64,000 nt of DNA from a virus. Its lineage: Duplodnaviria > Caudoviricetes. The notes beneath the pieces are model-generated. The model did no database searches. It was not told the DNA's origin and saw nothing but the letters and a program-made list of their open reading frames with translations. Positions 33,101 to 50,156 of the stretch are shown here, piece after piece. The stretch covers positions 41,851-105,850 of the IMG/VR virus record IMGVR_UViG_3300038345_000076; one strand, 5' to 3'. Made by a program: the position numbers and the translations under genes. Positions within the stretch are counted from its first letter, which is position 1. Each line of letters opens with the position of its first letter.

Positions 33101-36100
33101 ATGGTGCTTTGCGTAATGGGATCAAAAATGCCGTAAATGAACTGAAGAACTATCACGTATTGGCAAACGACCTTATTGCCAAAGTGAATATGACCGATAG
33201 CAACGGTAAACCGATCATGTCACTTGCAGAGCAATATAACTATCTGAGAAGTCAGGTTGAATTAGCAGAGCAGGCCATGGAAGAGTTTCAGAGGACATCT
33301 TCTGCGCAAGAATCTGCTTTAAACTCTACAGGTGGTATAGGTAATGACAATGCCCTTGAAGATATAAACGACTATTTTTCTTCAAGGAAGGCTTTTATCG
33401 AGAAAACAAACGAGTTTGTAGAAAAATACAAGAATCAGGCTAAAGTTGCCATTGATGCTGCAAGGGATGAGGATGAAGCCTTCAGAAAACAGACAGAGGG
33501 CATGGCTAATTACGCAGAAATGCTAAGAATCCTTGTTACAGAAACAGACTCACTTGGCAATAAGATGGATTTCTCGAAGGGCTTTAATGTATTCTGGGGT
33601 ATGCCTAATATGCAATCAACAGACTTTAGGAGCCTTTGGAGTGGTGTTGGTGGTCAGTTTAATGAGGCAAAAAAGGAACTTGACAACTGGGCGACAGGTT
33701 TCCGTGCTGCAATGGAAGGTAGTTTTGGCTATGACTTTTCCCATCTGACAGAAGTCCAGTTAGAGAATATCCGCAGACATATATGGGATTTTTCCAACTC
33801 TCCAGAATTGAGCAAACTTGACGAAGAGACGAGGAAATGGATTCGTGATTATCTTGGAAGAAAGTGGAATATAACTTTTTCAACTAATGCCGAAACCGTT
33901 CTTAAAGATTTTGACGAAATGCAGAATCATATAGAGAAACTTGTTGGTAAAAAATGGGTTATCAAACTGAAGTTGCAGTCTGTCGGTTCTTTTGAAGAGT
34001 TGTATGACACCCTTGACAAAGATGTTAAAGAAGCAAAAGAAACCATCAAAAAACTTGGTACGTCTTTTACAAATGAAAGAAAAAAACAGTTAGAGAGTAA
34101 CGTCATAGATGATACACAACTATCAGGAAAAGAAAAAGAGTATAGAGACGCTTACAAAAAACTTAGGAAAGCAAAGGCTGCATCAGACCAAGAAGGTTTC
34201 AAGTTGTCTTCATTAGAGGAAAAGGAATCTGGTAGAACTGGTAGAAGTGGCAGTAAGTCCGAAGACAAGGATGCGCGTCGCCTGCGTGAGATCGTGAAAC
34301 TTTACAAGGATGCCTACGACTGGTACGGGAAGTACGAGAAGCAGGTGGGAGAGGGTAGTGCTTTGGCAAAAGTCAAAGAGCAGTTTGAGCCTCTGTTCAA
34401 ACAATTTGAAGAGCAGTTCAAGCAGAAACTATCCCTTGACTCGATACCTCTCTATAAGGAGAATCTTGTATCGCTTCTTGACGAGGCACAGAAACTTTAC
34501 GAGTCGCCCAAGCATAAGAACTCGTACATGGTGGAAGCCATCAAGACAATCCGTGATGCCATCAATAACGTGGACTATGAAGAGGCGCAGCGCAAGATGG
34601 ACGAATATGCAAGCAAGGTACAGATAGAACTCGACGGTCTTACCCGTGCGTGGGACATGTTTAATAATGTACGTGAGGCTACTGGCAATATTGACCTTGC
34701 CGTACAGTTGAGCGGTGCGGACTACCAGGCAGGACAGACACGTAACCTTGCCGATTCTCTGAAGAAGAAGATTGAGCAAGATTTTGCCTCTGCCAATGCC
34801 GTAGCCATACCGTTTGACATCAATATGTCTGACAAAGATATTGAGAATAACATCAAGAATGCAATTCCGAAGGAAAGTGAGGAACGTATCAAGGGTATCG
34901 TTGAGGAATACAAGAAATGGCGTGACTTGCAGCGTGAGGTGTTTAACGATGCCATCAACAACTATGCAAAGATTCTCGGCTCACTGGTTGATCATAAGTC
35001 TCAGATAGAGAAGATTGAAGACGAGTACAAAAAGGAGGTTGAACTCCTAAAAATACTTTTGGATTCTGGTAAAATCACTCAGGAGCAGTATGACAAGGGA
35101 GTAGGTATTGCCAGAGGTAATGCCGACTCTAAGGAATGGCAGGCTTCCACATCATATATAAATCTGATGAATAATTCCCTGTCAATGACCCGCTCTGAGA
35201 TAGAGGCAGCCGCCAATATGCAGCGTGACTATCTGAACAGGGAGTTGGAACGCGGTGCTATTGATGCGCAGAAATACGTTGAGGAAATGTCAAAACTCCA
35301 GAATCTTGAAAGGGAGTGGAGCGACAAAGGTTTCCTTGGTCTTCGTGGTGGTGTCGGTGCTTTTCTCAGTGGTGGTAATGATGGGCTACTGAACTATTAT
35401 CAGACCCGTGCTAAGAAAGCGAGAACTGATTATGCAAATGCCGATAATAAGAACAGCAAGGATGCAAAAGAGAAACTAAAAGAAGCAAAGCATTATGAGG
35501 GGTTGTATAGTTCTCTTGTGAAATTAACTGATGGTGCTAAAAAGGTATTTACGGCTTTTCAGACTTTGCAGGCTGGGATAGACCTTGTAGCAAACTTGTT
35601 TGACTCTCTTGGAATGAAAGGGGCGGCAACATTCATGAGTGATGTTAGTGGCGTTCTTGGAAGTGGCTTACAGGGGGCATCAGCATTGTCAGCCCTTGGT
35701 CCTTGGGGAATGGCTGCAGGTGCTGGACTTGGACTGCTTGGAGGTTTGTTTGGTTTACACGACAAAGTCTTGCAGCGTGAGATTGAAAGGCTCCGTGAGG
35801 ACGTGCAGAAGATTGAGAACAATACAGACTTGATAGTTCAAGCCCGTGAGCGTACCCTTGGCTATGACACAGGAGATTTGCGTCGCAGTTATGCGCAGCA
35901 GTACGCTCCCAATGAAGCAAGACGTCAGAAAATTCTTGCATCAGACGATTGGTTTAATAAATTTTTAGCAAACACCGCTTGGGGGCAGGGTTTTAACTCC
36001 GTTGCTCAGAATGCCATGTACGAATACTATCAAAGGAATAGTGCTGGCACAGGTTATCAGCAGCAGTTGGCGAATCTGAAAGCAGAGCGTGAAGACTATA

Positions 36101-36909
36101 TGAGAATGTACGATGCAGAGAACGACAAGAAAGACAGTTCTGGTGAGGCATTGGAGGAATACCGAAAGAAGATTGCTGAGATTGATGATCAGATACTCTA
36201 TTTCACGGAGGATTTGGCAAAAGAGCTATGGGGTATTGACCTAAAAGGATGGGCAAATCAGATTAGCGATTCTTTATGGACTGCTTTTGAGAACGGCGAG
36301 GATGCAATCAAGGCTTTCCACGAAACCGCTAAGGATATTATATCTGACGTTGCGAAACGCATGATGAATATACACCTAATTGAGCCTGTCATGACAAAGT
36401 TGGAAGAGGCATTGTTTGGCAAGGTTGGTGCAAATGGAGAACGAATTGGTGGCGGTGCATATAATATGCAGACAGGTAAGTTTAATGAGAGAGAGACTTT
36501 GGAAATTCTTGGTCAATTCTTCGGAGAGGGTGGAGAGTTTGCAAAAGTGATAGGTTCCGCTGAGAGTTTCTACGAAATGGCGAAGAAGGTTACAGGCATA
36601 GATTTTGGTTCAGATAGTGGCGGTTCTACAAGCAGTACAATCAAGGGTGTTACAGAGCAAACCGCCGACCTATTGGCAAGTTATGTCAATGCCATCCGTG
36701 CAGACGTTTCTGTTATCCAAGCCATGATAGCGCAATACTTCCCGCTGTACTATCAAGCATTGACTTCCGGCAACGAAAGGTTGAGGGGGATAGAAAATAA
36801 TACCGCGGCTATCATGCGGAGTAACGAAGCGATAGAAAAGAGCAATCAGGCTATCCTCGACAGAATTGACGGACTTAGGAACAATACATGGAGAGTTCCA
36901 ATGGCGTAA
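30190..36909 (+). CDS. Tape measure protein (2239 aa)
   Basis: Very long helical ORF; core SPFGVVELDQMTKQLTAYG...LADISAATG. Confidence 0.9.
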   Translation: MALDPLKFQVAIQDDATSQLSSIEAALNSLKDKTISVKVEGLSDLQNLLSALQHQQVSNLGKDVGNAINEASRNLQKEAQDAVRTSLGNLAQDLASIKTAIQNDNFTAFSNRIQTCAEKVNLLDEAFKKFKVTIGENEELKNLLTGLGAAIREVSSAMSAMNSVRNSGGAKAQKEELKQQEEGLIKVTNAIGRVRDAASGDGGASSGSVAFMESINKVGERNIQTLIKEQGHIERLIAIAKKSIDFGEGHPVLGMGRLRGDQMQNLQNLEQLKNVIKEILFAANQGDQTAIRFLNTLGSLKTISFGKDLMGNNITLLGGHFDQLTHSVTGTASAMRQLNKDMRLDFNKAANKEKLAAEAEAVKKLAASYKSMQQESNAMRSQSESALASRIRMLREQSSDLQKLLSVGKIGLGEGQYNSVRDALREIRKELQQIETITQRGGNSTGLLRSLSVGRDYSGVIASGRAVADMRNKQAQETNLASRAVSQLTMEEQRLAQALNQATNSARGQSQVLSDLKSLATQYLGVWGGQQFLNNIIQIGGQLEMQRLSIGAILGDAAQANDLFEKIKGLAIQSPFGVVELDQMTKQLTAYGFEYNELFDMTKRLADISAATGTGVDRLALALGHVRSEAALSGYTLRQFSMANIPLAQKLSERLSEIEHRFVSIADVRKRVRSKEIGYEDVVAVLKEMTDEGGMFYRAQETMSQSVKARFKNLKDSMDIMYGEMAESKVGDGLKEVAITLTNLTRNWEELAAAIATVTALYGGKKMIAFLNANAINAYSSSITRLGMNLGSLTATELRELAYSGQLSKQRLLEAVATGQVSVEDAKLAAAKWGLNNAQLAQVASGQRTIASLTANSIATSKYSVAQLRAIATTRQFALGSKGLAVAMNVVATNAKKARSALLGLLKAAWPVALITAGVEAWMHYRKQSEQAAEAAENAFTRGTESVRNLRDALQSLPKYEIVNGTANLDDGALRNGIKNAVNELKNYHVLANDLIAKVNMTDSNGKPIMSLAEQYNYLRSQVELAEQAMEEFQRTSSAQESALNSTGGIGNDNALEDINDYFSSRKAFIEKTNEFVEKYKNQAKVAIDAARDEDEAFRKQTEGMANYAEMLRILVTETDSLGNKMDFSKGFNVFWGMPNMQSTDFRSLWSGVGGQFNEAKKELDNWATGFRAAMEGSFGYDFSHLTEVQLENIRRHIWDFSNSPELSKLDEETRKWIRDYLGRKWNITFSTNAETVLKDFDEMQNHIEKLVGKKWVIKLKLQSVGSFEELYDTLDKDVKEAKETIKKLGTSFTNERKKQLESNVIDDTQLSGKEKEYRDAYKKLRKAKAASDQEGFKLSSLEEKESGRTGRSGSKSEDKDARRLREIVKLYKDAYDWYGKYEKQVGEGSALAKVKEQFEPLFKQFEEQFKQKLSLDSIPLYKENLVSLLDEAQKLYESPKHKNSYMVEAIKTIRDAINNVDYEEAQRKMDEYASKVQIELDGLTRAWDMFNNVREATGNIDLAVQLSGADYQAGQTRNLADSLKKKIEQDFASANAVAIPFDINMSDKDIENNIKNAIPKESEERIKGIVEEYKKWRDLQREVFNDAINNYAKILGSLVDHKSQIEKIEDEYKKEVELLKILLDSGKITQEQYDKGVGIARGNADSKEWQASTSYINLMNNSLSMTRSEIEAAANMQRDYLNRELERGAIDAQKYVEEMSKLQNLEREWSDKGFLGLRGGVGAFLSGGNDGLLNYYQTRAKKARTDYANADNKNSKDAKEKLKEAKHYEGLYSSLVKLTDGAKKVFTAFQTLQAGIDLVANLFDSLGMKGAATFMSDVSGVLGSGLQGASALSALGPWGMAAGAGLGLLGGLFGLHDKVLQREIERLREDVQKIENNTDLIVQARERTLGYDTGDLRRSYAQQYAPNEARRQKILASDDWFNKFLANTAWGQGFNSVAQNAMYEYYQRNSAGTGYQQQLANLKAEREDYMRMYDAENDKKDSSGEALEEYRKKIAEIDDQILYFTEDLAKELWGIDLKGWANQISDSLWTAFENGEDAIKAFHETAKDIISDVAKRMMNIHLIEPVMTKLEEALFGKVGANGERIGGGAYNMQTGKFNERETLEILGQFFGEGGEFAKVIGSAESFYEMAKKVTGIDFGSDSGGSTSSTIKGVTEQTADLLASYVNAIRADVSVIQAMIAQYFPLYYQALTSGNERLRGIENNTAAIMRSNEAIEKSNQAILDRIDGLRNNTWRVPMA

Positions 36910-38672: not shown

Positions 38673-41600
38673 ATGAGCGGTTGGACGATATACAGCAAAC
38701 AGGGAACACCCAAATACAAGGTTGAAAATCTGGAGTTCCGTGACATATGGATGGGCGAGGAGTTCGTGACGGTAAGTATCGTCTCCCCCACCCCGATAGA
38801 GCTTCAAATAGGCGACTATCTGACGTACAGGGGAGCGACATATACCATCTATTCGCTTCCTGCCGCTTTGAAACAGGCAAGGAGCAGCAGTTACGGCGAG
38901 GCTTTCAAGTACGATAACGTGAAGCTGTCTGCGCGTAGCACGGAGCTTACGGACATCCGATTCCTTGATATTGTTCTCGGAGACAACAACCTTCATTACA
39001 CGTCGCTTCCCACGTTCTCCGTCTATTGCGAGACCGTTGACGACTTGGTTGACCGCTTGCAGGCCAACACTGACAGGAACGCTATACAGTGGTTTTTCAT
39101 CACACCAAACCATTCGAGGACGATGCAGCGATACACTGGTGCTGCTGCTGTCACGGCGGATGCGCTATGGCATCAGTATTACGATGATGCGGACGATTTG
39201 TTTGAGGGCAACACGGAAATAAACGTCTCCGTTGACAAGAAAAGCCTCTGGGAAGGTCTTGCCTTCATCAAGAACAACTTCGGACTAAACTTCATAACCC
39301 GTGACAGGTCATGTATCATCGGTGCTCCTGGTGTTATCGCAAACCATATCTTCCAGTACGGGAAGGGAAACGGTCTGTATCAGATAGAGCGTGTTGCAGA
39401 TCAAGACCAGCAGATCGTTACGAAGCTCTTTGCCTATGGCAGTGACAAGAACCTTCCATTACGCTACTATGCCACCATCGGAGACGACATGCCGAACAAC
39501 ATGGCTGTCAATGTCCTCATGCTGCCAGGGTTTCCTCAGTATGCACTGAACCAGTTGTGCCGTACCACATACTATACCGACGGTACGGGCAAAAGGCATA
39601 CGAAGGTGCAGATACGCAAGACACCTTCCGCAGGCTATTCCGACATTATGGATATACTCGGCGAGTACACTATCGGCTTTTCTGATAACAAGCTGCGTCC
39701 GTATATCACGTCAGGCAATGTAGGTACTCTCGGAGTGAAAGAGGGAGACATCCACTTCACGGAAGAGAACGACGACAATGGCTTGAAGGAGGTGTACCCA
39801 TCCATCGAGGGCATGACGGCAGGAGACGCAGGTGTAAGCGGTCTTCCTGCCGACGAGCGTCTTGACGAAATAAAGGCTTGTGATGTCATCGACGACAACG
39901 GTGTCTTTGAAGAGGGTGCAGAGATACCTAACTTCAACATATACCTGAAGCCTCTCGGCTTTGACTTGAAGCAGGCTTACGATGCCAACGGAGGTACGAT
40001 GGTGATACACCTCAACGACGGCTACTGCGGAGGACGCGACTTCTCCGTAAAGAGTGTCGAATGGGAGGAGGCGAACAGCAGGTGGAAACTAAACGTAGAG
40101 CGTCATCACGACGAATCCCTTGACTTGTACTTTCCCTACTCCTGGGGCAAGTCCACTGGCGGCTCGTCCTCTGCCAACGAAGCGTATCAGATACGCACTG
40201 GAGACCATTTCGTCTTGACAGAGATAGAGATAAGCGATACGTCGTATATATGGGCTGCGAGCGTCAAGGCGTTGCGCAAGGCTATCACATGGCTTCTTAA
40301 CAACGACTACACGCGCTTCACTTATCTCCCGAAGGTTGACGAGATATTCATGGCACGTCAGCACGACTCATCTACGCCAGGGACTTCCCTGCATGACACA
40401 TTGAAGGCTGGAGACGTTATGAACTTCGAGGACAGTGACCTGGATATCGCAGGTAATGTGTTTATTGATACCCTTACGATCAAGGAAAACGGCAACAACG
40501 GCATACCCACATACGACGTAGTGTTACGCAACGACAAGCAGGTAGGCACGATGCAGCGAATACAGAACCAGTTGAACTCGCTTTCCTCGTTTGTCTCAGG
40601 AGGCGGTGGAGGTCTGAGCATAGCGCAGATACGTCAGTTGATCCAGACATACGGTGCCGACTTGTTTCTCTCCAAACTAAACGACGATACGGCACAGGGG
40701 ACACTGACTCTGATGAAAAGACTTGTAGTTGGGTTACAAGCAACGTTTAACAAAGGGTTTGAATCCAAAGACTATTCAAAACTTGCAGAAGGTGCCGACT
40801 TCGGAGATTTTGTTCAAGGGCTTGTAGGAGGTGACGGTGCAAGGATTGACAAGAATGGTAACATGGAGGCGACAAGCCTCTTTCTTCGTTCTGAACTCAT
40901 AGCACCGAAGCTGACATACAACCATGTAGATGTCCGTGTAGGTGATGAATGGCAGACAAACGGAGGAGGTGAGATAGCCTATGTTGACGGGTTCTTTACA
41001 GACCCAGAGGATAATATAGAAGGCGGTTATATCCATCTGCGTTTACAAGAAGATGACGAAGGAAATATAGTAGAGTTCGGAACGCTTAAACTGAACGATT
41101 TCTGTAAGGGAATCTTTCATAACATGGATGGCGGTTATAACGACACGCAGACCACAGATGACGGTAAGGGAGGCAGGACATTCTCAGGCTTCTTTACTTC
41201 GTTCTTCAATATCATAGAGGTTAGCGGAGACCATTACGAGACTCTGAAATACAAGTTACGTCCTACCATCACTTCTGGAGGGTTTGACTATTGGATGCGT
41301 GACGATGGTACGGCAAGTGGTATGCGTGGAGGTTTCCATCCGTGCGCACATATGACCTTTGCACAGTACTCAAACCCACAAGACACGACACGTCAGAATT
41401 GTCAGTACCGCACTACGACATATATGCGTATGCTGGCTAACATGACTGGCTGGGATGAAGGACTTGCCAACGTAGCATTCCAGGTAGGCAACACACCTTT
41501 GATAGCAAGTGCCTTTGGAAGTACAGACCCAAGCGGAAGGGCTGCTAATGCTGGTCGCTACTCCATGTGGATTAACGGCGACATCTTCTTTTCTGGCACA

Positions 41601-44600
41601 CTGAACCGTGTGGACGCATGGGGCAGGGATATAACAGACTACCCAGACCAAGGGGATTATGCTCCAACTACTACATACCGTCTCAATGACCTTGTGCACT
41701 ATAATGGTATCGTTTGGCGGTGCATAAAGGCTTCTGTTACAGGAGAAGCACCAGGAAGCAATACGCAAGACCCGTCATGGATTAAATGGATTTATGCCGA
41801 AAGCGTAGAACCGATGGGGCATTGGAACAGCACAAGAAGACATTATCCTGCCAAAGCTATCGTAAACCTGTTCAATGGTGTGTATATGGCTAAGACGGAG
41901 ACAAACAATGCTCCTCTTGGACTTCTAATGACAAAAGACGGGGAATATATTACTACCGATGACGGGGGATATATCATTGTCGATGATACGATTGACTCAG
42001 ATTGGGAGTTGCTTCTTGATACTGGAGATATAACCAATGGAGAGGATGGAGAGAATGCTGTTGTCATCAACCTCACAAACGATACTGATAGCGTTTTGAC
42101 TGACGAGAAAGGAAACATCCCGTCTAGAACATCCTTTCCTACGACAACGGCAGAACTGTATGACGGACTGAATAAGGTAGTGCAAGGAGTAGTGTGGTCT
42201 ATACAATCCACTACTGGCTGTACGGCATCCATTGATGCTACCACTGGAGAATGTCAGGTACTTACGATGACTGCCGATAATGCCGAGGTCGTCATCATTG
42301 CTACTTACAAGCAGAAAACATACGGAAAGAAATTCACTTTCAAGAAACTCTTAGGCAAAGATAAACTGTGGCTTGATATGCCAGAGGTGGTGTATTACGA
42401 CAACCCGACAGCAAAGAACATCTCACCAGTCAAATTAGTCATCAGGGCTTATATTACATCCGCAACAAAAGGGACGGCACAGGCTATCTATGGAAGCATG
42501 AACTGTGGATATGTGAGGGTTGGCGGTTCCAACACAAACTACTATCATGGTGACGAGGTAGGAATAACATACGATTCTTTCACTAACGGACATCTTATCG
42601 TCAACCTCTACGATTCAAGCGGCAATATTCAGGACACAGAGGATATAAGGCTGTTACAAGAACCAACACAACTCGTTTCAGGAGGGAGGTGGACTTCTAC
42701 TACTGAGGTAAAGATTAATCACTTCTACCGCTTCGGAGATTCCATATACCTTGCAAAGAAAGAGAGTGTAGGCATATCACCTGTAATGTCATTGCTTAAA
42801 GATTGTGATGGGAACTTCATTACTACCAGCGATGGCGGGTATATCATATTAGACGACAGAACAAACACAGAATACTACGACAAGTGGGTTACTGACGGCG
42901 ATGCCGTTAATGCCGTGCGCATTGATCTCGACAACGAGAACGATACTATGCTGTATGACAATAACGGCAATCTGCTGTCAACTCCTTGCGTATCTAACGC
43001 TACACTCTATGAAGGAAACCAGAAGATAAGCAACGCTGTTTTCTCCATCATTTCTACAGAAGGCTGTACGGCAGCTATCAACGGAAACAAGATAACCGTG
43101 TCTGCAATGTCACAGGAGACTGGCAGTGTCATGGTTGGATGCGTTTACAAAGGCACACAGTATATCGTCGTGATGAGTCTTACAAGAATCATCAATCAGG
43201 ATAAGTTTGATATTGTATGCTCTCCGAACAGCGTGGCGTATAATTCCACCTCAGAGGAGGTACAGACAGGAGGTACTATCGTTGTAGAGGTATGGCGCAC
43301 ACCTGCCAGTGGCGGTGCTCGTGAGAAGGTGCAGAGCCTTGCTACGTATGGTCTTACGCTTTCCTGTTCTCCTTCTGGAATCATGGGTACTTATTCTGGT
43401 GGCAGTGCGACTATAACGGTAAACGCTTCCACTGCTGGAGGTAACGATAACATCATCATCATTCTGACAAAAGACGGAAAGACTGTTGATGCCGAGGGCA
43501 TTCCTATTGTAAAGGCGGAGGATGCCGTTACATACGAAATCGTTGTCTTTCCAGACGGCTTCAACCGTAACAATGACGGAACGTATAAAGACAGCACCCA
43601 CACCATTACTTGCCGTGTGTTCAAGATTGCTGGGGAAACAAGAACGGAACTCAACAACACAACGTTTGCATCAGAAGGTCTTTCCTTTGCACCGTTAGTC
43701 AATGACACACTTATATCCAACCCGTTCCAATGGAGTGGAACAGCTTTCTACTGGCAGCTTCCTGTTGTCTATCCATCTGGCAGCAGCACGCTTGTTAAGA
43801 AGATAAGCGTACAGGTCAAGAAAAGCAATGCTGTCATCCTCTCTAAAGACATTACATTCTCTTTTGACGGAAAGGAGGGTTTGCAGGGATGTGCCACAAG
43901 AGTATCTGAATGGAACGGCGAGTCAGGCTATTACCGCAACGATGAAGGCAAAAACCTTCAATCTGGCGAGGTTGGCTATATTGACATCGTTGCAAGAGAA
44001 TCAACGGAAACTCCAGACGGGTATTATTTCTACCTACTAATAGCAGGTTCTTATTCTGGTGACACGTATCACAGCACAACACCGCCTGAAAACGACACAT
44101 CACACTGGCTTCAACTGTCTAATGTCGGTCCGCTATACACTTCCCTGCTTATCGCCAAGAACGCTTTCATCAAGTTCGGTAGTGGCAATCAGTTCATTAT
44201 CATTAATTCCTCAAACAACATCGAGGCAGGAATGAAGGGCGATGGAGACATCCGTATATGGGCTGGAGGAAGCAATATCGGAACGGCAAACGACACAAAT
44301 CTTGCCAACGCTCCTTATCGAGTAAAGAAAGATGGTTCATTTGTATCTTCAAAAGCCGATATTCAAGGGACAATAAGAGCGCAAACTTACTTCTATGACG
44401 TACAGACATTAGCACTTCCAAATTCAGACGGACAGTACGTCGGTACTATCCAAACAGGAAAACAGATAGTGTTTGTAAAGTCTCCTCGAAATCCAAACGG
44501 GCAAAACAATATCGTTTACCTGCCATACGCAAACACAAACAACGGTGCGGTAATAGATATATATTGCTATCCGAATCTGGGTGTATCGTCAAGCAATCAG

Positions 44601-44765
44601 GGTATTCTCATAGAACCACAGCCTGTTTCTGGGCAAACGATTACTGACCCATATACAGGAGAAAGTCTTGATTATGTTGCACTGGAAATATCTCACAAGG
44701 CACGATTCTATTGCAATGGCAATACTTGGATATGGTTAGAGCGTAATATAAACACATCACAATAA
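38673..44765 (+). CDS. Large tail tip/host-specificity protein (2030 aa)
   Basis: Tal-like N-terminus (YGKGNGLY...TKLFAYGSDKNLP), a CBM5/12-like module and internal repeats. Confidence 0.8.
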   Translation: MSGWTIYSKQGTPKYKVENLEFRDIWMGEEFVTVSIVSPTPIELQIGDYLTYRGATYTIYSLPAALKQARSSSYGEAFKYDNVKLSARSTELTDIRFLDIVLGDNNLHYTSLPTFSVYCETVDDLVDRLQANTDRNAIQWFFITPNHSRTMQRYTGAAAVTADALWHQYYDDADDLFEGNTEINVSVDKKSLWEGLAFIKNNFGLNFITRDRSCIIGAPGVIANHIFQYGKGNGLYQIERVADQDQQIVTKLFAYGSDKNLPLRYYATIGDDMPNNMAVNVLMLPGFPQYALNQLCRTTYYTDGTGKRHTKVQIRKTPSAGYSDIMDILGEYTIGFSDNKLRPYITSGNVGTLGVKEGDIHFTEENDDNGLKEVYPSIEGMTAGDAGVSGLPADERLDEIKACDVIDDNGVFEEGAEIPNFNIYLKPLGFDLKQAYDANGGTMVIHLNDGYCGGRDFSVKSVEWEEANSRWKLNVERHHDESLDLYFPYSWGKSTGGSSSANEAYQIRTGDHFVLTEIEISDTSYIWAASVKALRKAITWLLNNDYTRFTYLPKVDEIFMARQHDSSTPGTSLHDTLKAGDVMNFEDSDLDIAGNVFIDTLTIKENGNNGIPTYDVVLRNDKQVGTMQRIQNQLNSLSSFVSGGGGGLSIAQIRQLIQTYGADLFLSKLNDDTAQGTLTLMKRLVVGLQATFNKGFESKDYSKLAEGADFGDFVQGLVGGDGARIDKNGNMEATSLFLRSELIAPKLTYNHVDVRVGDEWQTNGGGEIAYVDGFFTDPEDNIEGGYIHLRLQEDDEGNIVEFGTLKLNDFCKGIFHNMDGGYNDTQTTDDGKGGRTFSGFFTSFFNIIEVSGDHYETLKYKLRPTITSGGFDYWMRDDGTASGMRGGFHPCAHMTFAQYSNPQDTTRQNCQYRTTTYMRMLANMTGWDEGLANVAFQVGNTPLIASAFGSTDPSGRAANAGRYSMWINGDIFFSGTLNRVDAWGRDITDYPDQGDYAPTTTYRLNDLVHYNGIVWRCIKASVTGEAPGSNTQDPSWIKWIYAESVEPMGHWNSTRRHYPAKAIVNLFNGVYMAKTETNNAPLGLLMTKDGEYITTDDGGYIIVDDTIDSDWELLLDTGDITNGEDGENAVVINLTNDTDSVLTDEKGNIPSRTSFPTTTAELYDGLNKVVQGVVWSIQSTTGCTASIDATTGECQVLTMTADNAEVVIIATYKQKTYGKKFTFKKLLGKDKLWLDMPEVVYYDNPTAKNISPVKLVIRAYITSATKGTAQAIYGSMNCGYVRVGGSNTNYYHGDEVGITYDSFTNGHLIVNLYDSSGNIQDTEDIRLLQEPTQLVSGGRWTSTTEVKINHFYRFGDSIYLAKKESVGISPVMSLLKDCDGNFITTSDGGYIILDDRTNTEYYDKWVTDGDAVNAVRIDLDNENDTMLYDNNGNLLSTPCVSNATLYEGNQKISNAVFSIISTEGCTAAINGNKITVSAMSQETGSVMVGCVYKGTQYIVVMSLTRIINQDKFDIVCSPNSVAYNSTSEEVQTGGTIVVEVWRTPASGGAREKVQSLATYGLTLSCSPSGIMGTYSGGSATITVNASTAGGNDNIIIILTKDGKTVDAEGIPIVKAEDAVTYEIVVFPDGFNRNNDGTYKDSTHTITCRVFKIAGETRTELNNTTFASEGLSFAPLVNDTLISNPFQWSGTAFYWQLPVVYPSGSSTLVKKISVQVKKSNAVILSKDITFSFDGKEGLQGCATRVSEWNGESGYYRNDEGKNLQSGEVGYIDIVARESTETPDGYYFYLLIAGSYSGDTYHSTTPPENDTSHWLQLSNVGPLYTSLLIAKNAFIKFGSGNQFIIINSSNNIEAGMKGDGDIRIWAGGSNIGTANDTNLANAPYRVKKDGSFVSSKADIQGTIRAQTYFYDVQTLALPNSDGQYVGTIQTGKQIVFVKSPRNPNGQNNIVYLPYANTNNGAVIDIYCYPNLGVSSSNQGILIEPQPVSGQTITDPYTGESLDYVALEISHKARFYCNGNTWIWLERNINTSQ

Positions 44766-44791
44766 ATATTAATATTTAAAACATATAGATT

Positions 44792-45307
44792 ATGGATAAA
44801 TTAGGAAAATTTTTACAGAGAGGTTTGGTGAATGCCTCACCGAGCAGATTCCTTATGGCAGACGTTAAGGAGAACGAAATGGCAAGTTCCTTGCCACAGA
44901 ATGTAACGGCGGACTATGTTCGTGCCATAGGTAGTGATGGAAAGAGTTATAGAATACCAAGAGCAGATTTCGCAAGCATCATCCGTAGCGAGTTAGGAAC
45001 AATCTTAAATGGACTGACAAACCAGACCACCGTAACGAAGGTTCCAACGCTTAACGGATCCACTCTTGGAGCATCAGCTGTTGCAACTTTGGCATCAGTT
45101 CTGGGCGTAGAAATGCAAGTGTATGTCAACGATGGTTTCTCTCATGGTATGCCTGGATATACGGGAATATTCGTTGGCTTCAACATGACCAATGAACGTG
45201 GTGGAGCAATATTCTTTGAAGCAGAAGGGGTGGGTGGAGGTTTCTTCACCAGTGCTACCGTTAATGGGCAGATTATACAATGGCATCATTTGGCATTTCA
45301 ATCTTAA
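44792..45307 (+). CDS. Tail fibre/receptor-binding protein: constant N-terminus plus currently expressed variable C-terminus (cassette 1 from 45101)
   Basis: ...LASV-LG(CTGGGC)-VEMQ; the CTGGGCG site is shared by nine silent cassettes. Confidence 0.8.
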   Translation: MDKLGKFLQRGLVNASPSRFLMADVKENEMASSLPQNVTADYVRAIGSDGKSYRIPRADFASIIRSELGTILNGLTNQTTVTKVPTLNGSTLGASAVATLASVLGVEMQVYVNDGFSHGMPGYTGIFVGFNMTNERGGAIFFEAEGVGGGFFTSATVNGQIIQWHHLAFQS

Positions 45308-45334
45308 CAAAAAGGAGGTATAAGCCTCCCTTTT

Positions 45335-45595
45335 CTGGGCGTAAGAGGCAGAATTATATTTGAAGATAAGCAAATACAACAGAATGGTAGTTACACTACA
45401 GGTTCTCTTGCAGGAGGACTGTATGTGTTAGAATCAACAGTTGGAGGACATAATATCGTATTTACGCTATATGCTTCAGGATTGCATGTTATTCAAGCAG
45501 ATGCTGCACAGATTACAGTAACAGGCAGTATGAGTGCAGGTGTAACAGTTACGAATAATGCTTCTGCAAGAAACTTTACGTTAAGGAAATTATAA
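45335..45595 (+). other. Silent C-terminal cassette 2 (86 aa)
   Basis: LGVRGRIIFEDKQ...NFTLRKL*. Confidence 0.85.
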
Positions 45596-45616
45596 AAGGA
45601 GGGTATTGCCATCCTT

Positions 45617-45865
45617 TTATATTGCTGTAAATGTACACTCTCTCCACCGTTGCCAAGTATTATTTGCATAAACATTATAAAAGAGTTTTCCGGAAGCTGT
45701 ACCACTTGCATATTCAAGAGCAATGCGAATAGAATAAATCATAATACAATATCCAAAAGAACATGGTGTGTTATTATGAGTGGTAGAATTGAACCATTCA
45801 CATTTTACTATATTTGTGGTTCCAAGCAAGTCTGTTACGATAGTATTGTTATTGAATGCGCCCAG
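45617..45865 (-). other. Silent cassette 3 (82 aa)
   Basis: LGAFNNNTIVTDLLG...TWQRWRECTFTAI*. Confidence 0.85.
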
Positions 45866-45921
45866 CTCTTATTGTTATTGGTGGTTAACAAACAAGGGGT
45901 AGCTCTGCTACCCCCATTATG

Positions 45922-46167
45922 TTACCAGGGTACACTGTTGCCGAACAAGTATTCCCATCCTGTTGTTATTACGGGTTTTTGGTCATAGGAATATCTAAAG
46001 GCTAACGTCCTATTAGAAGTGAACCTCTGAACAATCTGGCCACCTGAAGTTCTAATAACTTCTAAAATGTAGAATCCATGAGTATTATCCCATCCAACAT
46101 AGTAACCTTCTTCTATTGTATGGTCTGGGTCACTTACAGAATAATGTTTTTTGAAAGTTACGCCCAG
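45922..46167 (-). other. Silent cassette 4 (81 aa)
   Basis: LGVTFKKHYS...TGWEYLFGNSVPW*. Confidence 0.85.
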
Positions 46168-46178
46168 AAAGAATAATT

Positions 46179-46430
46179 CTGGGCGTATGGCGTTTGGCTT
46201 CAAGAAGCTCTCAAGAAGGCGATATATCATCATGTGACGAGTGTGTTAATGGATATATATACTTTATGACAGTTCAACATCCGTTAAGTAATGCACCTGA
46301 GCTTCCTTGTAATGTAATCACATTTAGAACGGATTCAATAGGCTTTCAATTTGGATATGGCTATTGGACTGGAAAAATGTATACGCGTGGACTGAACGGT
46401 GGTACTTGGTCAAATTGGAAAGAGTTGTGA
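46179..46430 (+). other. Silent cassette 5 (83 aa)
   Basis: LGVWRLASRS...GTWSNWKEL*. Confidence 0.85.
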
Positions 46431-46461
46431 AATAATGGGACGGTTTAATGCCGTCCAATTT

Positions 46462-46818
46462 TCACCACTCCATAACCAGTACTCTAAAATATACAGAAAG
46501 ACCTTCTCTTTTGGTTACAGTCAAACTTCCATCATTATTGAAGGAGAGGTCAGATTGTTTTATGGCATTTCCTTCATAAATTGTTCCTGCAACTGTTTTT
46601 CTACCAAGAACAAAGACGCTGGGTGTCGCTGTATTTTGAGATATAAACAAAATGCTACACCTGTCACCATCACTTCCTCCAAAGTAGGTATTTGGTATAG
46701 TAACACTTGTACCTGATGCTTGTTGTATTGAGAAGCATGAACGAGGATATGAAAATACTTTTTCAGACATAATAGTACGAATACCATTAATCCCCTCATT
46801 ATTTTCAATTTCGCCCAG
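46462..46818 (-). other. Silent cassette 6 (118 aa)
   Basis: LGEIENNEGINGIRTIMSEK...FRVLVMEW*. Confidence 0.85.
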
Positions 46819-46830
46819 ATGTAATTAATG

Positions 46831-47097
46831 CTGGGCGTGGTACGTTATATTGGAGACATTAATTCATCTTCAAATATAGATGATTTGGTAAGTGGATGGT
46901 ATAGAATAAGCACAACTACACCTCCTAATTGGTGGTTTAATAACTCAAGCACAGATGGACTTGTTGAGGTTATCAAAACACACGCTAACTACAAAATGTT
47001 AAGATATACAAGTTTTACTAATGGAGACGTCTATGGACGCTGTTATTTATGGACTTCATGGGGCGACTGGAAAAAGTTCACGGCTGGAACATTATAA
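46831..47097 (+). other. Silent cassette 7 (88 aa)
   Basis: LGVVRYIGDIN...SWGDWKKFTAGTL*. Confidence 0.85.
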
Positions 47098-47125
47098 ATA
47101 GTGGGAGGTTTTTTCCTCCCACTTA

Positions 47126-47407
47126 TTATGTTGCATACTCAACCACTGTTCCTGTGACTTTCCTCCACATGCCAAATCCATTATCCCAGCCTCTGAACCA
47201 AAAATCCGATGAACCCTTTGCACAATCAAATACGATTTGCTCTTTGTTTTGTAAAACATACAAGCAAAACGAATTAGTGAGACCTGTGGGACGATGAGAA
47301 TGGTTTCGTGTTTGCACCCCAGCTAAAGTGTAATAGCAATGACCAATTTCGGTATAGTCATCAAAGTCTCCTCCATCACTCTGATAATGGCGCTGTATGC
47401 CGCCCAG
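47126..47407 (-). other. Silent cassette 8 (93 aa)
   Basis: LGGIQRHYQS...GFGMWRKVTGTVVEYAT*. Confidence 0.85.
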
Positions 47408-47419
47408 CATTAATCATTC

Positions 47420-47761
47420 CTGGGCGTAGATAGGATTGTGTATACGAATGGTTCAAACAATCAATCTTTTTATATTGCTTCGTTTGGTAACTACTCGTCT
47501 GTCAGAATATTAGGATCGCATTCTAATGTAAACAGTGGTGCTATTGACTTCACTATATATGGCAATATGGGGGATTTTGTGGCAAAGGGTAATGCTGGAC
47601 AGAATGGTTATGACATTAAAGTTTACAAAAAGGATTCAAAAATATATCTCTTTTTTCCTACCGGTATTTCTGTTAATGTTATACTCGTCGGCGGTCTTGG
47701 TAAACTAATACAGGAGGCTATACCAGAAGGCGCCACCCAGTTGACTGTTTCCCCTTATTAA
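47420..47761 (+). other. Silent cassette 9 (113 aa)
   Basis: LGVDRIVYTNGS...IPEGATQLTVSPY*. Confidence 0.85.
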
Positions 47762-47790
47762 CAATAAAGGATGGCTTGTAACCATCCTTT

Positions 47791-48006
47791 TTATATTTCC
47801 TTCCACGATGTATAAGAAGCACCTCCATAAACACTAATACGAGTATATAAGCCACCAATTACATCAGAAATCTTGGAAATAAAAAAATGACCCCAATAAT
47901 AACTACCTTGCGCTTCAATCAGTAAACCAAAGTCAGCAGGCATCCCTTTAGAAATTCCATCTCCAGCATAAGATTGAGCTTTGAATTTCCCTCCTAAAAC
48001 GCCCAG
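47791..48006 (-). other. Silent cassette 10 (71 aa)
   Basis: LGVLGGKFKAQ...YTSWKEI*. Confidence 0.85.
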
Positions 48007-48018
48007 CACTCTAAGACG

Positions 48019-48408
48019 TTAGGCTCCTTCGCTTGGTGTGGTATGGAGGCTGAATTTGCTTTTGACTACCCATGGTTCCCATTTTTCGTAGCGTGACTCG
48101 CGGCTACGGCAATAGCGAATGATTATGGCTTTTTCGTAGTTAAGGATTAATAGTTCTTGCTTATTGTCTGTAGGGAAAAACATGACCAATCCTTTTCCTA
48201 TTATAGTTGGTTCTCGATAATTACCTATTGTGGTAAGACAGGGTGCGTCCTTTACTAACTTTTCTAGTTCTTCCTCAGGAATAACCGAATTTCCTTCAGG
48301 GCACAATGTATTGATGTCTGTGCCATATGGTATATTTTTCTGTGACAACATCGCCGCTTGCGCATGGAGTGCCTCTTTAAATTGCTTGTCTCTTTCTTCC
48401 TGTGTCAT
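48019..48408 (-). CDS. Hypothetical protein with a cassette-like WxxW C-terminus
   Basis: ...IRYCRSRESRYEKWEPW; own -7 element TAACTTTG at 48429-48436. Confidence 0.65.
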   Translation of the reverse strand: MTQEERDKQFKEALHAQAAMLSQKNIPYGTDINTLCPEGNSVIPEEELEKLVKDAPCLTTIGNYREPTIIGKGLVMFFPTDNKQELLILNYEKAIIIRYCRSRESRYEKWEPWVVKSKFSLHTTPSEGA

Positions 48409-48482
48409 AATCGTTTTTTAGTTTGCCGCAAAGTTAAGAAAAATCCTTGAAACACCTTTGTTTTATTCTGATTATTTATATT

Positions 48483-49712
48483 TTACCCCGGTTTTTCGGG
48501 CAATTTTTCATCCGATATTTCGTCTCCAGTATCACATGTTGCTACTTTAAAAGCCTTCTTGACATCGTTGGCAATCATAGTTTTGGCAATATGTGCATAC
48601 CTTTGCGTCTGCTCTATCTTGGTATGGCCAGCCAATTTTGATACGGTCGTTATCGGCACTCCTTTTGCTATGAGTAGGGTGCAGAAGGTATGGCGCAGCG
48701 TATGGAAGGTGATATGTCTGGAGTCGGCTACCCCAATACGCTTGATCAGATCCTTCAGAGTCCTGTTGGCAGAGGCGTTATTACCTATATGCGTCAGTCT
48801 TTCTATGCTGCCGCGCCGCTCGATCAACGCGAGTGCCTTTCCACCGAATAGAGAATATAGCGGTAACCTTACAACCACTCCAGATGACTTGCTTGTTTTC
48901 TTCGGCTGTATGATAAGCCAGGTCTTTCCATGCTCCTTCAGCAGCATGTCAGAGGTGAGGGTTGTCAGATCATGATATCGCAGTCCGGTATAGATGGCCA
49001 TCAACGCACAGTCTCGGATTCTTGCCTCGCGTTTCTTTAATTTAAGATGCTCCAGCTTTCGCACCTCATCGAATGTCAACGACTCTTCTCTGCTCTTTAT
49101 CTTAGGAATAGGGAAATGCAGGAACGGGTCATCGTCGACGCATATGAGCTTTCTGGCGATAGCCTCGTTGATGATACACCTTATGCCTTTTAGTCTGCCT
49201 GATATAGTGCTTTGTGACATCTTCTGGGATTTCTGCCAATCCACGAACCTGTTGAGCCAGTCTATATCTATCTCTTCTAATGTAAGGTCTTTGTGAAACC
49301 TGTCCACTATCTTGATAAGTGTGTTATAGGAATCCTTTGTGTGCTTTCCTCTTGAAGATGAATGTTCATTGATAGAAGTCACGAAATCACGGAATGTAGC
49401 AGAAGATGAAATATTATGTCTGACAGCGTTCTTAAGCATGGCAAGCGTGGGATTCTTTCCCCTCTGTATAAATCCGAACTCGATGCGTTGTATCTTGATT
49501 AACTCATCAAATATATACTGGTTGAGTTGCTTTGCAAGAGGATGATTGACAATATAATGACCGTCCCACTGATACGGATATAGGTAAACTTTTGTTGAAA
49601 AGTATATTCTCTTTCCGTTAAGCAGGCACTCCACTTGCACAAGGCTTCTTCCGTCTAAGTTTAACTTCCCTTTTCTGTTGAATACAAGCCTGTATCTTAC
49701 TTTATCAAACAT
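48483..49712 (-). CDS. Tyrosine recombinase (Bacteroidetes Arm-bind/SAM/catalytic type), probable shufflon invertase
   Basis: TGLRYHDL (R), KTS (K), HTLRH (HxxR), AGH, TQRY (Y). Confidence 0.9.
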   Translation of the reverse strand: MFDKVRYRLVFNRKGKLNLDGRSLVQVECLLNGKRIYFSTKVYLYPYQWDGHYIVNHPLAKQLNQYIFDELIKIQRIEFGFIQRGKNPTLAMLKNAVRHNISSSATFRDFVTSINEHSSSRGKHTKDSYNTLIKIVDRFHKDLTLEEIDIDWLNRFVDWQKSQKMSQSTISGRLKGIRCIINEAIARKLICVDDDPFLHFPIPKIKSREESLTFDEVRKLEHLKLKKREARIRDCALMAIYTGLRYHDLTTLTSDMLLKEHGKTWLIIQPKKTSKSSGVVVRLPLYSLFGGKALALIERRGSIERLTHIGNNASANRTLKDLIKRIGVADSRHITFHTLRHTFCTLLIAKGVPITTVSKLAGHTKIEQTQRYAHIAKTMIANDVKKAFKVATCDTGDEISDEKLPEKPG

Positions 49713-49871
49713 GTCTTTTTCTTACAAATATACGAATAGTTTGCAAAATGTAAAACATTTCCATTGAAAAGTGATATTGTTATAGATAATTTTGTTTTTT
49801 TTGTAAAAAAAGTAGTAAATATCATTAGATATTTAACTCGTAACACACAACACAAACACAATTAACATGTT

Positions 49872-50156
49872 ATGAAGAGGATTTTAGATTGGTTCGCAGG
49901 AATAGAGAAGGACAAGATATTGCACGACGACATGGTGTTTAATATTTCCTTGCTTGCCGCTTGTGCATGCAGGCTGTTAGTCAGCAAGGAGTGGTATAAT
50001 ATAACCGCATGTGCTTTCTTCGCTGGCTTCATCGCAGGTGTGGCGAAGGAAATCTATGACGAGTGGAAGTACAAGGGTGCTGACGAGCGTGACTGGAAAG
50101 CCGACATCTGCGGTCTTGTGCGTGGCACTATATTCTCATTATTATTAACAATATAA
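49872..50156 (+). CDS. Small membrane protein
   Basis: DKILH...AKEIYD...DWKADICG with hydrophobic segments. Confidence 0.7.
   Translation: MKRILDWFAGIEKDKILHDDMVFNISLLAACACRLLVSKEWYNITACAFFAGFIAGVAKEIYDEWKYKGADERDWKADICGLVRGTIFSLLLTI

What the first reader, a model, noticed from the sequence alone, without database searches (positions are those of the whole stretch)
44792..49712. Ten-cassette tail-fibre shufflon using a 7-bp CTGGGCG crossover site and a tyrosine recombinase
Seen: the fibre gene reads ...LASV-LG-... across CTGGGCG at 45101. The same 7-mer recurs nine more times within 2.9 kb, five sites per strand in total. Every copy opens an in-frame Leu-Gly ORF of 68-118 aa. Three pairs of sites sit back to back only 11-12 nt apart (46161/46179, 46812/46831, 47401/47420). 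A complete tyrosine recombinase lies next door. Established: inversion-based receptor switching is known from Mu Gin and P1 Cin (serine invertases, two states) and the R64 pilV shufflon (tyrosine recombinase Rci). Inference: this phage can display any of ten receptor-binding tips. The shared site is very short and I see no conserved flanking arms, so the mode of site recognition is an open question.
Basis: partly seen in the sequence, partly recalled or inferred. Interest (0 to 1): 0.9.

Follow-up and report, generated by a model that had tools for sequence, protein, structure and literature searches.

The report
Ten-cassette phage tail-fibre shufflon
A 106-kb phage from the cattle gut stores ten interchangeable tips for one small tail-fibre protein and very probably swaps them by flipping DNA at a 7-base site with its own recombinase; it is a large example of a host-range switch already described in a few other phages.

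Summary
CTGGGCG occurs 10 times in 45101-48006, five per strand, against 12 in the whole 105,850-bp record. Each copy opens an in-frame Leu-Gly ORF of 68-118 aa.

The shufflon reading is supported by comparison, not by reads from this phage's own population.
- A relative (L029) has the window's silent cassette C6 fused to the constant fibre part exactly at the 7-mer.
- Two contigs of a more distant relative (L048, L050; 99-100% identical) differ only by a precise inversion between two inverted 7-mers.
- Thirty fibre homologues all break at ...LASV|LG and carry 28 different C-termini.
- In ten related arrays a tyrosine recombinase (31-78% identical) sits directly beside the array.
- The record also holds a separate integrase-like gene and no serine recombinase.
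- Cassette C6 folds as a tail-fibre knob (R-pyocin fibre-like).

One correction: the sites are not armless. Silent sites keep a degenerate copy (A-7, T-6, A-4, T-2) of the fibre's ATCAGTT.

Tyrosine-recombinase tail-fibre shufflons are already published (Rin, BV01-like phages). This scan has also noted many on other DNA, though not this family. I class it as a new variant of a known kind, of moderate interest.

The parts
44792..45100 (+). Constant 5' part of the small tail-fibre gene (103 codons, ending ...TLASV). It starts 27 nt after the 2030-aa tail protein gene.
   Evidence: The ORF is 44792-45307. Thirty homologues share this part and all break at LASV|LG. The homotrimer model scored 0.55 against a best control of 0.00.
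45101..45307 (+). Site a (45101-45107) and cassette C0, the tip expressed in this assembly (68 aa plus stop).
45335..45595 (+). Site b (45335-45341) and silent cassette C1 (86 aa). It needs two inversions to be expressed.
45617..45865 (-). Silent cassette C2 (82 aa), read from site c (45859-45865). It needs one inversion.
   Evidence: It is 100% identical in a contig of run X7, where it has a different neighbour beyond the site.
45922..46167 (-). Silent cassette C3 (81 aa), read from site d (46161-46167).
   Evidence: The segment is 97.6% identical in L010 but has other cassettes on both sides.
46179..46430 (+). Site e (46179-46185) and silent cassette C4 (83 aa). It sits back to back with site d across an 11-nt spacer.
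   Evidence: Weak PHROG match to tail fiber protein phrog_2915, E 2e-4.
46462..46818 (-). Silent cassette C5 (118 aa), read from site f (46812-46818).
46831..47097 (+). Site g (46831-46837) and silent cassette C6 (88 aa), a knob-like fibre domain.
   Evidence: It is found fused to the constant part in relative L029/P0003 (92% aa, 96% nt). The AF2 model has pLDDT 85 and matches R-pyocin fibre knobs (TMq 0.65-0.69). PHROG match phrog_257, minor tail protein, E 4e-5.
47126..47407 (-). Silent cassette C7 (93 aa), read from site h (47401-47407).
   Evidence: 33% identical to an L013 cassette.
47420..47761 (+). Site i (47420-47426) and silent cassette C8 (113 aa).
47791..48006 (-). Silent cassette C9 (71 aa), read from the outermost site j (48000-48006). 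It is 30% identical to C0.
   Evidence: In run X2 it is joined to the C3 segment at the site.
45314..45329 (+). Terminator-like hairpin after C0. Similar hairpins close the other cassettes or convergent cassette pairs at 45594-45618, 45896-45914, 46438-46456, 47100-47123 and 47766-47790.
   Evidence: One search found 14 terminator-like sites against 3.7 expected. The imperfect hairpin at 45594-45618 was seen only as repeat D7.
48019..48408 (-). ORF of 129 aa between the array and the recombinase, function unknown. It is absent from this position in relatives, so it is probably not a core part.
   Evidence: No Pfam, PHROG or NCBIfam family. No similarity to the cassettes. The Atlas returns only hypothetical viral clusters. 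In L001 and L013 the last site lies 34-52 nt after the recombinase stop.
48483..49712 (-). Tyrosine recombinase (409 aa), the presumed shufflon invertase. Its 3' end faces the array.
   Evidence: Domains. Catalytic residues. Adjacent to CTGGGCG arrays in all relatives.

Best explanation
This is a multiple-inversion system (shufflon) at the 3' end of a small, probably trimeric, tail-fibre gene of a 106-kb cattle-gut phage, probably of a Bacteroidota host.

The promoter-linked constant part (103 codons) ends in the linker ...LASV-LG. The Leu-Gly codons CTGGGCG are the crossover core.

Nine silent, start-less cassettes follow, five pointing towards the fibre gene and four pointing the same way as it. 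Each begins at the same core in the same frame. Each ends in its own stop codon and a hairpin.

The dedicated tyrosine recombinase next door pairs two oppositely oriented sites and exchanges strands within the 7-bp core, which inverts the DNA between them. One inversion puts C2, C3, C5, C7 or C9 behind the constant part. Two inversions put C1, C4, C6 or C8 there. The phage population can therefore display ten different knob-like tips and so hedge against variable host surfaces.

Shown here: the anatomy; exact cassette exchange and exact inversion at the core in relatives; conserved linkage of recombinase and array; and the fibre-knob fold of one cassette.

Inferred: that this recombinase is the catalyst; that switching goes on in this phage; that only inversions and not deletions occur; and that the tips bind receptors.
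For: 1. Site statistics and frames: 10 sites in 2.9 kb, with only 2 elsewhere in 105.8 kb, and all ten frames open.
2. L029 is colinear with window 38729-45108, then jumps to 46831-47124 (C6, 96%). The two alignments overlap by CTGGGCGT. Its product P0003 is the constant part plus C6.
3. L050 against L048: positions 1-691 are colinear (99.1%), 685-1206 are the reverse complement of 1728-1207 (99.8%), and 1200-1240 are colinear again (100%). This is a precise inversion between inverted cores. A recombinase 39% identical to the window's lies beside that array.
4. Runs X2 and X7, from other bovine studies, hold homologous segments in another order with joints at the sites (47999|45859, 8 shared letters). 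Both adjacencies can be reached from the window's order by two legal inversions.
5. Of 30 fibre homologues, all break at LASV|LG and they carry 28 distinct C-termini. Of 210 pairs with N-termini at least 85% identical, only 3 share a tip.
6. In ten related arrays (2-11 sites; recombinase 31-78% identical) the recombinase is adjacent. In all seven complete arrays the first site is + and the last is - as seen from the fibre gene. The three arrays cut by a contig end also finish with - on the recombinase side. An inversion-only system must keep this invariant.
7. The record has a second integrase-type gene beside antirepressor and replication genes, and a Xer-like gene beside an FtsK-like gene. 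The array-linked enzyme is therefore not needed as the integrase. There is no serine recombinase.
8. The catalytic R-K-H-R-H-Y residues are intact.
9. The C6 model (pLDDT 85) matches R1/R2 pyocin fibre knobs and staphylococcal phage receptor-binding proteins. The fibre homotrimer model scored 0.55 against a best control of 0.00. That mark was reached by 20 of 30 solved pairs and 1 of 23 single chains. The runs share at least 62% of contacts, and pLDDT is at least 52.
10. Hairpins follow the cassettes.
11. Contigs L010, L032 and L033 end 0-2 nt after a core. That is where an assembly graph would branch if the population were mixed.
Against: - No alternative junction was seen in the source sample. 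Only assembled contigs at depth about 9 were available, and they show one arrangement. Contigs drop rare variants, so this is weak evidence.
- The L029 junction could also arise by deletion between the direct sites a and g.
- The recombinase has an integrase-like three-domain build and no specific invertase signature.
- The information outside the 7-bp core is small, about 2-3 bits. Two further cores exist in the genome, one inside the tape-measure gene (33687). How specificity and inversion bias are achieved is unexplained.
- Only one of the ten cassettes was folded. The model of the whole fibre was poor (pLDDT 52.7).
Confidence: 0.85

Rival explanations
1. Frozen array. The locus was built by a shufflon mechanism and relatives still switch, but in this phage it no longer rearranges, for example because the recombinase is not expressed or has lost activity. 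The nine silent cassettes would then be dead stock.
For: Only one arrangement appears in the source sample's contigs. The inserted ORF129 separates the recombinase from the array, unlike in relatives.
Against: All ten cores are perfect, all ten frames are open, the hairpins are intact and the recombinase is full length with all catalytic residues. Silent DNA without selection would decay. Contigs cannot show minority forms.
Confidence: 0.07
2. The system works mainly as a cassette-exchange or excision-integration platform, like an integron. The recombinase would chiefly delete, capture or swap cassettes between direct sites and between co-infecting genomes, and inversion would be a minor activity.
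For: - The L029 junction is what a deletion between direct sites a and g would give.
- Close relatives share very few cassettes.
- The C3 segment is 97.6% identical between the window and L010, while their recombinase genes are 68.6% identical. This implies lateral movement of a cassette.
- In X7 the cassette pieces are 98-100% identical against 88% for the recombinase piece.
Against: - L048 and L050 differ by a clean inversion.
- Both orientations are always present, and the outermost site is always inverted relative to the fibre site.
- Arrays with 5-6 consecutive direct sites persist (L013). This argues that deletion between direct sites is suppressed.
- Exchange between phages could also happen by ordinary homologous recombination in the flanks.
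Confidence: 0.06
3. The recombinase is simply the prophage integrase. The CTGGGCG copies are conserved only because they encode a structural Leu-Gly linker of a multigene family of small fibre genes. Cassettes would then be exchanged by chance or by homologous recombination.
For: The enzyme has an integrase-like domain build. The DLAS(V/L)LG linker also precedes knob domains inside longer, non-shufflon proteins (P0006, P0036, P0039). L009 has the motif without an array.
Against: - Silent cassettes have no start codon or constant part of their own. Leu-Gly could be encoded in 24 ways, yet 34 of 34 sites use CTGGGCG.
- 7 bp is too short for homologous recombination.
- The inversion endpoints are exact.
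- Another integrase-type gene sits in the lysogeny and replication region.
- The recombinase stays glued to the array across 31-78% divergence.
Confidence: 0.02

Closest known systems
Rin shufflon of Bifidobacterium breve/longum prophages (Mavrich et al. 2018, PMC6109161)
   Same: It is phage-encoded. A constant N-terminal part of the receptor-binding protein is joined to alternative C-terminal cassettes. Each cassette is preceded by a short asymmetric repeat. A tyrosine recombinase flanks the array. Inversions occur exactly at the repeats.
   Different: The site is unrelated (11-bp TTCCCTAACCC against the 7-bp core CTGGGCG). Rin has five cassettes, against ten here and eleven in L013. The host phylum, recombinase lineage and fibre family differ. 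Here the site is built on a conserved inter-domain linker, LASV-LG.
Tail-fibre shufflon of BV01-like Phocaeicola vulgatus phages (preprint 2026, PMC13596623)
   Same: It belongs to a gut Bacteroidota phage. The shufflon overlaps the distal end of a tail-fibre gene and is flanked by a recombinase. Reads there show all configurations.
   Different: BV01-like phages have three cassettes and six isoforms in 1.7 kb, and a 10-bp motif TGGGAGAACT with 14-18-bp extensions. The window has no DNA similarity to any deposited phage. Its recombinase's best deposited match is the Bacteroides phage BS-TP2 integrase at 36%.
R64 plasmid pilV shufflon with Rci and sfx sites (Komano 1999; the sfx details are from my own knowledge)
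   Same: It is a tyrosine-recombinase multiple-inversion system that swaps C-terminal segments of a surface adhesin. It has a 7-bp core and strongly asymmetric sites. Only inversions occur, despite direct repeats.
   Different: It is a plasmid pilus adhesin, not a phage fibre. sfx has a well-conserved 12-bp arm, whereas here only four weakly conserved arm positions remain. Rci has no Bacteroidota-type arm-binding N-domain (not tested here).
Min (p15B), Gin (Mu and FR-phi) and Cin (P1) tail-fibre inversion systems
   Same: They use DNA inversion to exchange tail-fibre C-termini and host range. Min is a multi-site shufflon. In FR-phi one isoform was tied to a receptor (PMC13418256).
   Different: Those systems use serine invertases. 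This record has no Resolvase-family gene, and its array-linked enzyme is a tyrosine recombinase.

Membership tests
Shufflon (multiple-inversion system, sensu Komano) | Several recombination sites in both orientations bound the invertible segments. | tested here: met
   There are ten identical cores, five per strand, within 2.9 kb.
Shufflon (multiple-inversion system, sensu Komano) | One constant 5' gene part can be fused in frame to each alternative 3' segment. | tested here: met
   All ten cassettes are open in the Leu-Gly frame. The constant part is found on 28 different tips in homologues. C6 is found fused in L029.
Shufflon (multiple-inversion system, sensu Komano) | A dedicated site-specific recombinase is encoded beside the array. 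| tested here: met
   An intact tyrosine recombinase lies adjacent here and in ten related arrays. That it is the catalyst is not testable with these tools.
Shufflon (multiple-inversion system, sensu Komano) | Inversions between sites actually occur. | tested here: inconclusive
   This is met in a relative: L048 and L050 differ by an exact inversion. In this lineage, rearranged junctions at the sites are seen in L029, L010, X2 and X7. No rearrangement was seen within this phage's own sample, where only contigs were available.
Rin shufflon family | An 11-bp rix site, TTCCCTAACCC, lies upstream of each cassette. | tested here: not met
   The sites here are CTGGGCG with a degenerate ATnAnTn arm. 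The rix sequence is taken from PMC6109161.
BV01-like phage shufflon | A 10-bp motif TGGGAGAACT with 14-18-bp extensions, on a BV01-like backbone. | tested here: not met
   The core is different. There is no blastn match of 44000-50000 to any deposited phage.
R64 Rci/sfx system | A 7-bp core plus a well-conserved 12-bp arm on one side. | tested here: not met
   A 7-bp invariant core is present, but the arm is only weakly conserved at four positions. The sfx anatomy is recalled from memory, not checked here.
Serine-invertase fibre switches (Gin/Cin/Min) | A Resolvase-family serine recombinase. | tested here: not met
   PF00239 has no match in the 105,850-bp record.
Tyrosine recombinase superfamily (the enzyme) | The catalytic domain with the R-K-H-R-H-Y residues. 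| tested here: met
   PF00589 scores 70.4 bits against a cut-off of 27.1. R245, K272, H337, R340, H363 and Y372 are invariant among four relatives.
Tail-fibre knob domain (the cassettes) | The fold of the knob domains of R-type pyocin and phage fibres. | tested here: met
   This was tested for C6 only. The model has pLDDT 85 and pTM 0.73. Matches are 6cl5, 6cl6 and 6ct8 (TMq 0.65-0.69, E 3e-4 to 1.5e-3) and many viral tail-fibre models. The other nine cassettes were not folded.

The most novel reading that the evidence does not exclude
The 7-bp core may serve as more than an inversion site. It could be a common docking point that lets diverged phages of the rumen trade tip cassettes. Recombinase-mediated exchange between co-infecting genomes would turn the arrays into an open, community-wide library of receptor-binding knobs. 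The hints are these. The C3 segment is 97.6% identical between the window and L010, although their recombinase genes are only 68.6% identical. Cassettes in X7 are 98-100% identical against 88% for the recombinase piece. The same core is kept by recombinases only 31-39% identical.
Probability: 0.3. Interest if true: 0.7.

Novelty: new variant of a known kind. Interest (0 to 1): 0.55.

Why it matters
Host range is the main limit on what a phage can infect. Gut Bacteroidota constantly vary their surfaces. A phage that carries ten ready-made tips, eleven in one relative, and can change tip by one or two DNA flips shows how far pre-stored variation can go as a counter-strategy.

The family is common in ruminant-gut metagenomes. 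It offers an unusually small, well-defined site: a 7-bp core on a Leu-Gly linker plus a four-position arm. That makes it a convenient system for asking two questions. How does a tyrosine recombinase find such short sites? And why does it invert rather than delete?

The cassettes are also a natural catalogue of compact knob domains on one constant scaffold, which is useful for studying receptor recognition. The principle itself is already known, so the value lies in scale, site economy and the comparative material, not in a new mechanism.

Tried and rejected
- Whole-fibre fold: AlphaFold2 on the 171-aa fibre with 26 homologues gave pLDDT 52.7 and pTM 0.21. This was too poor for a fold search, so it was not used.
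- Fibre families: Pfam, PHROG and NCBIfam found no family for the fibre or for ORF129. A profile of the fibre against PDB sequences gave only chance hits.
- ORF129 as a cassette look-alike: blastp against all cassettes and tips found nothing (best E 0.24). Atlas feature hits to fibre families were 0.84-0.86, which is a lead only.
- Deposited phages: no DNA match for 44000-50000.
- Bacterial genomes: the fibre profile found no relative. The recombinase profile found only two 2.6-kb contigs, one binned in a Prevotella MAG and one in a Clostridia MAG. The conflicting bins mean the host cannot be named from them.
- Run X6 gave nothing when laid.
- The 17-mer GGCATCAGTTCTGGGCG scan of viral contigs returned 8 loci. 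About half (L002, L005, L007, L008) are GC-rich chance matches.
- Same-sample pairs of different tips: the lookups each came from a different sample, so there is no within-sample evidence.
- Arm-type sites or a conserved motif between recombinase and array: none was seen on inspecting the flanks.
- Long repeat-protein hits to C6 (P0037, P0038, P0043) look like low-complexity or repeat matches and were set aside.
- W against L029 as evidence for cassette transfer: the backbone itself is mosaic (97% / 91.9% / 96.2%), so this pair is not used for that claim.

Full report
**1. What is there**

The window is the right-hand 64 kb of a 105,850-bp IMG/VR virus record. The only run that holds the whole stretch, and its likely source, is a bovine-gut metagenome. 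The other listed runs are mostly ruminant or unspecified gut metagenomes that hold only small parts, and only three of them were laid.

The gene order is as follows:
- a tape-measure gene (30190-36909, 2239 aa);
- a 2030-aa tail protein with a CBM_5_12 module (38673-44765);
- 27 nt later, a 171-aa ORF (44792-45307);
- after the array, a 129-aa ORF (minus strand);
- a 409-aa tyrosine recombinase (48483-49712, minus strand);
- a holin-like gene.

The heptamer CTGGGCG occurs 12 times in the window and in the whole record. Ten of these lie within 45101-48006, five on each strand. Shuffles give 2.8. Read from CTG, every copy opens a frame of 68-118 codons. The copy at 45101 lies inside the 171-aa ORF, at ...LASV|LGVEM.

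Three pairs of sites stand back to back, 11-12 nt apart. Cassettes or convergent cassette pairs are closed by hairpins: 14 terminator-like sites were found against 3.7 expected. No further cassette hides behind a one-mismatch core. The cassettes are mutually unrelated in sequence, except C0 and C9 at 30%.

**2. Is it a recombination system?**

The evidence comes from relatives.

(a) A search with the fibre protein found 30 homologues. All have the junction LASV|LG at the same place, and they carry 28 different C-termini. Among 210 pairs whose N-termini are at least 85% identical, only 3 share a tip.

(b) One homologue, P0003, is the constant part (94% identical) fused to the homologue of the window's silent cassette C6 (92% aa). 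Its contig L029 is colinear with window 38729-45108, then continues at 46831-47124. The two alignments overlap by CTGGGCGT.

(c) L010 carries the C3 segment (97.6% nt). To the left of the core, 25 of 25 bases match the window. To the right follows an unrelated cassette.

(d) Contigs from two other bovine studies (X2, X7) join homologous segments in a different order. Their joints lie at the cores. One example is 47999|45859, with 8 shared letters.

(e) The cleanest case is in a more distant clade, where the fibre N-terminus is about 50% identical and the recombinase 39% identical. Contigs L048 and L050 come from two samples and are 99-100% identical. They differ only by the inversion of the 522 bp between an inverted pair of cores. 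The silent tip of one contig is the expressed tip (P0021) of the other.

(f) L030 and L031 are 96.9% identical up to 3 nt past the core and unrelated beyond it.

**3. The enzyme**

The 409-aa protein has the Bacteroidota integrase build (Arm-DNA-bind_5, SAM_5, catalytic domain). All catalytic residues are present.

In ten related arrays with 2 to 11 sites, a homologue (31-78% identical) lies directly beside the array with its 3' end facing it.

The record holds two more tyrosine recombinases outside the window. One is integrase-type, beside antirepressor and replication genes. The other is a short Xer-like gene beside an FtsK-like gene. There is no serine recombinase.

The array-linked enzyme is thus a third, dedicated recombinase. 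That it catalyses the inversions is an inference from linkage.

**4. The site**

Thirty-four sites from the window's clade share the invariant 7-mer. They also share a weak left arm: A-7, T-6, A-4 and T/A-2. This arm is a degenerate copy of the fibre gene's own ATCAGTT.

Relatives with only two or three cassettes keep the longer form, ATCAGTTCTGGGCG, on their silent sites. On the cassette side only T+7, A+8 and R+9 are weakly favoured.

Breakpoints in L010, L029, L048/L050 and X2 all fall within the 7-mer. It therefore behaves as the overlap region where partners must be identical. The arms are asymmetric and nearly free.

The linker DLAS(V/L)LG also precedes knob domains inside longer proteins without a shufflon (P0006, P0036, P0039). 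The site seems to have been built on a pre-existing inter-domain linker.

**5. How it would work**

I wrote the array as signed segments and allowed only inversions between oppositely oriented sites.
- The five minus-strand cassettes reach the expression site in one step, and the four silent plus-strand cassettes in two.
- The adjacencies seen in X2 and X7 are two steps from the window's order.
- In all seven complete arrays the fibre-side site is + and the recombinase-side site is -. The three arrays cut by a contig end also finish with - on the recombinase side. An inversion-only system must keep this invariant.
- L013 keeps runs of five and six direct sites, which suggests that deletion is suppressed, as with Rci. 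This is inference.
- Three contigs (L010, L032, L033) end 0-2 nt after a core. That is where an assembly graph branches if the population is mixed. This is a hint only.

**6. What the cassettes are**

C6, folded with six relatives, gives a confident model (pLDDT 85). It matches the knob domains of R1 and R2 pyocin fibres and the receptor-binding proteins of staphylococcal phages. It also matches many predicted viral tail fibres. A relative of C6 is followed by collagen-like repeats. C4 and C6 give weak PHROG tail hits.

A three-copy model of the fibre scored 0.55 against a best control of 0.00. That mark was reached by 20 of 30 solved pairs and 1 of 23 single chains. The runs share at least 62% of contacts, and pLDDT is at least 52. 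This supports self-association but does not show it.

**7. What is not shown**
- No alternative arrangement was seen in the phage's own sample. Only contigs were on hand, and they give one form.
- The host is unknown. The two small genome-bin contigs disagree.
- The role of ORF129 is unknown.
- It is not explained how about 18 bits of site information suffice, given two more cores elsewhere in the genome.

**8. Comparison with what is known, and novelty**

Tyrosine-recombinase shufflons on phage receptor-binding proteins are published. Rin in Bifidobacterium prophages has an 11-bp site and five cassettes (PMC6109161). A BV01-like Phocaeicola phage shufflon has a 10-bp motif and three cassettes, with read support (PMC13596623). 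Serine-invertase versions are classical (Gin, Cin, Min, FR-phi).

The present system shares none of their sites. No DNA matches any deposited phage, and the best protein match of its recombinase there is 36%.

This scan has already noted many such shufflons on other DNA, some with more cassettes, but not this family. I found no paper on rumen phage shufflons in the held library.

I class it as a new variant of a known kind. It has a large array, a minimal 7-bp core on a Leu-Gly linker with a vestigial arm, and a family that spans simple two-cassette switches to eleven-cassette arrays.

**9. The most novel reading not excluded**

The shared core may also let diverged phages exchange cassettes. 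The C3 segment is 97.6% identical where the recombinase genes are 68.6% identical. This could equally come from homologous recombination in the flanks, so I give it about 0.3.

Noticed in passing
G000:C1:7873-9045(-) and C1:35589-37786(-) (outside the window; loci L027 and L028): The record has two further tyrosine recombinases. One is a 390-aa integrase-type gene near antirepressor and DnaB-like genes. The other is a 279-aa Xer-like gene directly beside an FtsK/SpoIIIE-like gene, a possible dimer-resolution or partition pair in a phage.
   Followed up: partly
window 48019-48408 (-): A 129-aa ORF with no known family is inserted between the array and the recombinase in this phage only. Language-model neighbours are hypothetical viral proteins. 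The nearest named clusters (gp37_C, pyocin knob) score only 0.84-0.86.
   Followed up: partly
L029:7043-7049 (-): A relative has a second cassette (101 aa, LGVLNTDY...) behind a one-base variant core, CTTGGCG, which still encodes Leu-Gly. If core identity is needed for strand exchange, this cassette would be locked. At coverage 5 it could also be an assembly error.
   Followed up: no
proteins P0006 and P0019 (fibre homologues, 293 and 282 aa): Some homologues carry two tip domains in tandem, each preceded by the DLAS(V/L)LG linker. These could be products of a fusion at the site or natural two-knob fibres.
   Followed up: no
window 23756 and 33687 (+): These are the only two CTGGGCG copies outside the array. 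The one at 33687 lies in the tape-measure gene and matches three of the four weak arm positions. Recombination with it would be destructive, so something must prevent it.
   Followed up: no
L010 end, L032 end, L033 end: Three independent metagenome contigs stop 0-2 nt after a CTGGGCG core next to the recombinase gene, as expected if their assemblies met mixed arrangements.
   Followed up: partly
L031:1045-1824: A close relative of the fibre (N-terminus 91% identical) carries a 156-aa tip. Plus-strand genes follow it, with no further core in the remaining 1.8 kb. This may be a lineage without an array.
   Followed up: no
window 49872-50156 (+): A 94-aa ORF divergent from the recombinase is conserved beside it in relatives (85% in L001, 51% in L006). 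Its function is unknown, and it lies just before the holin-like gene.
   Followed up: no
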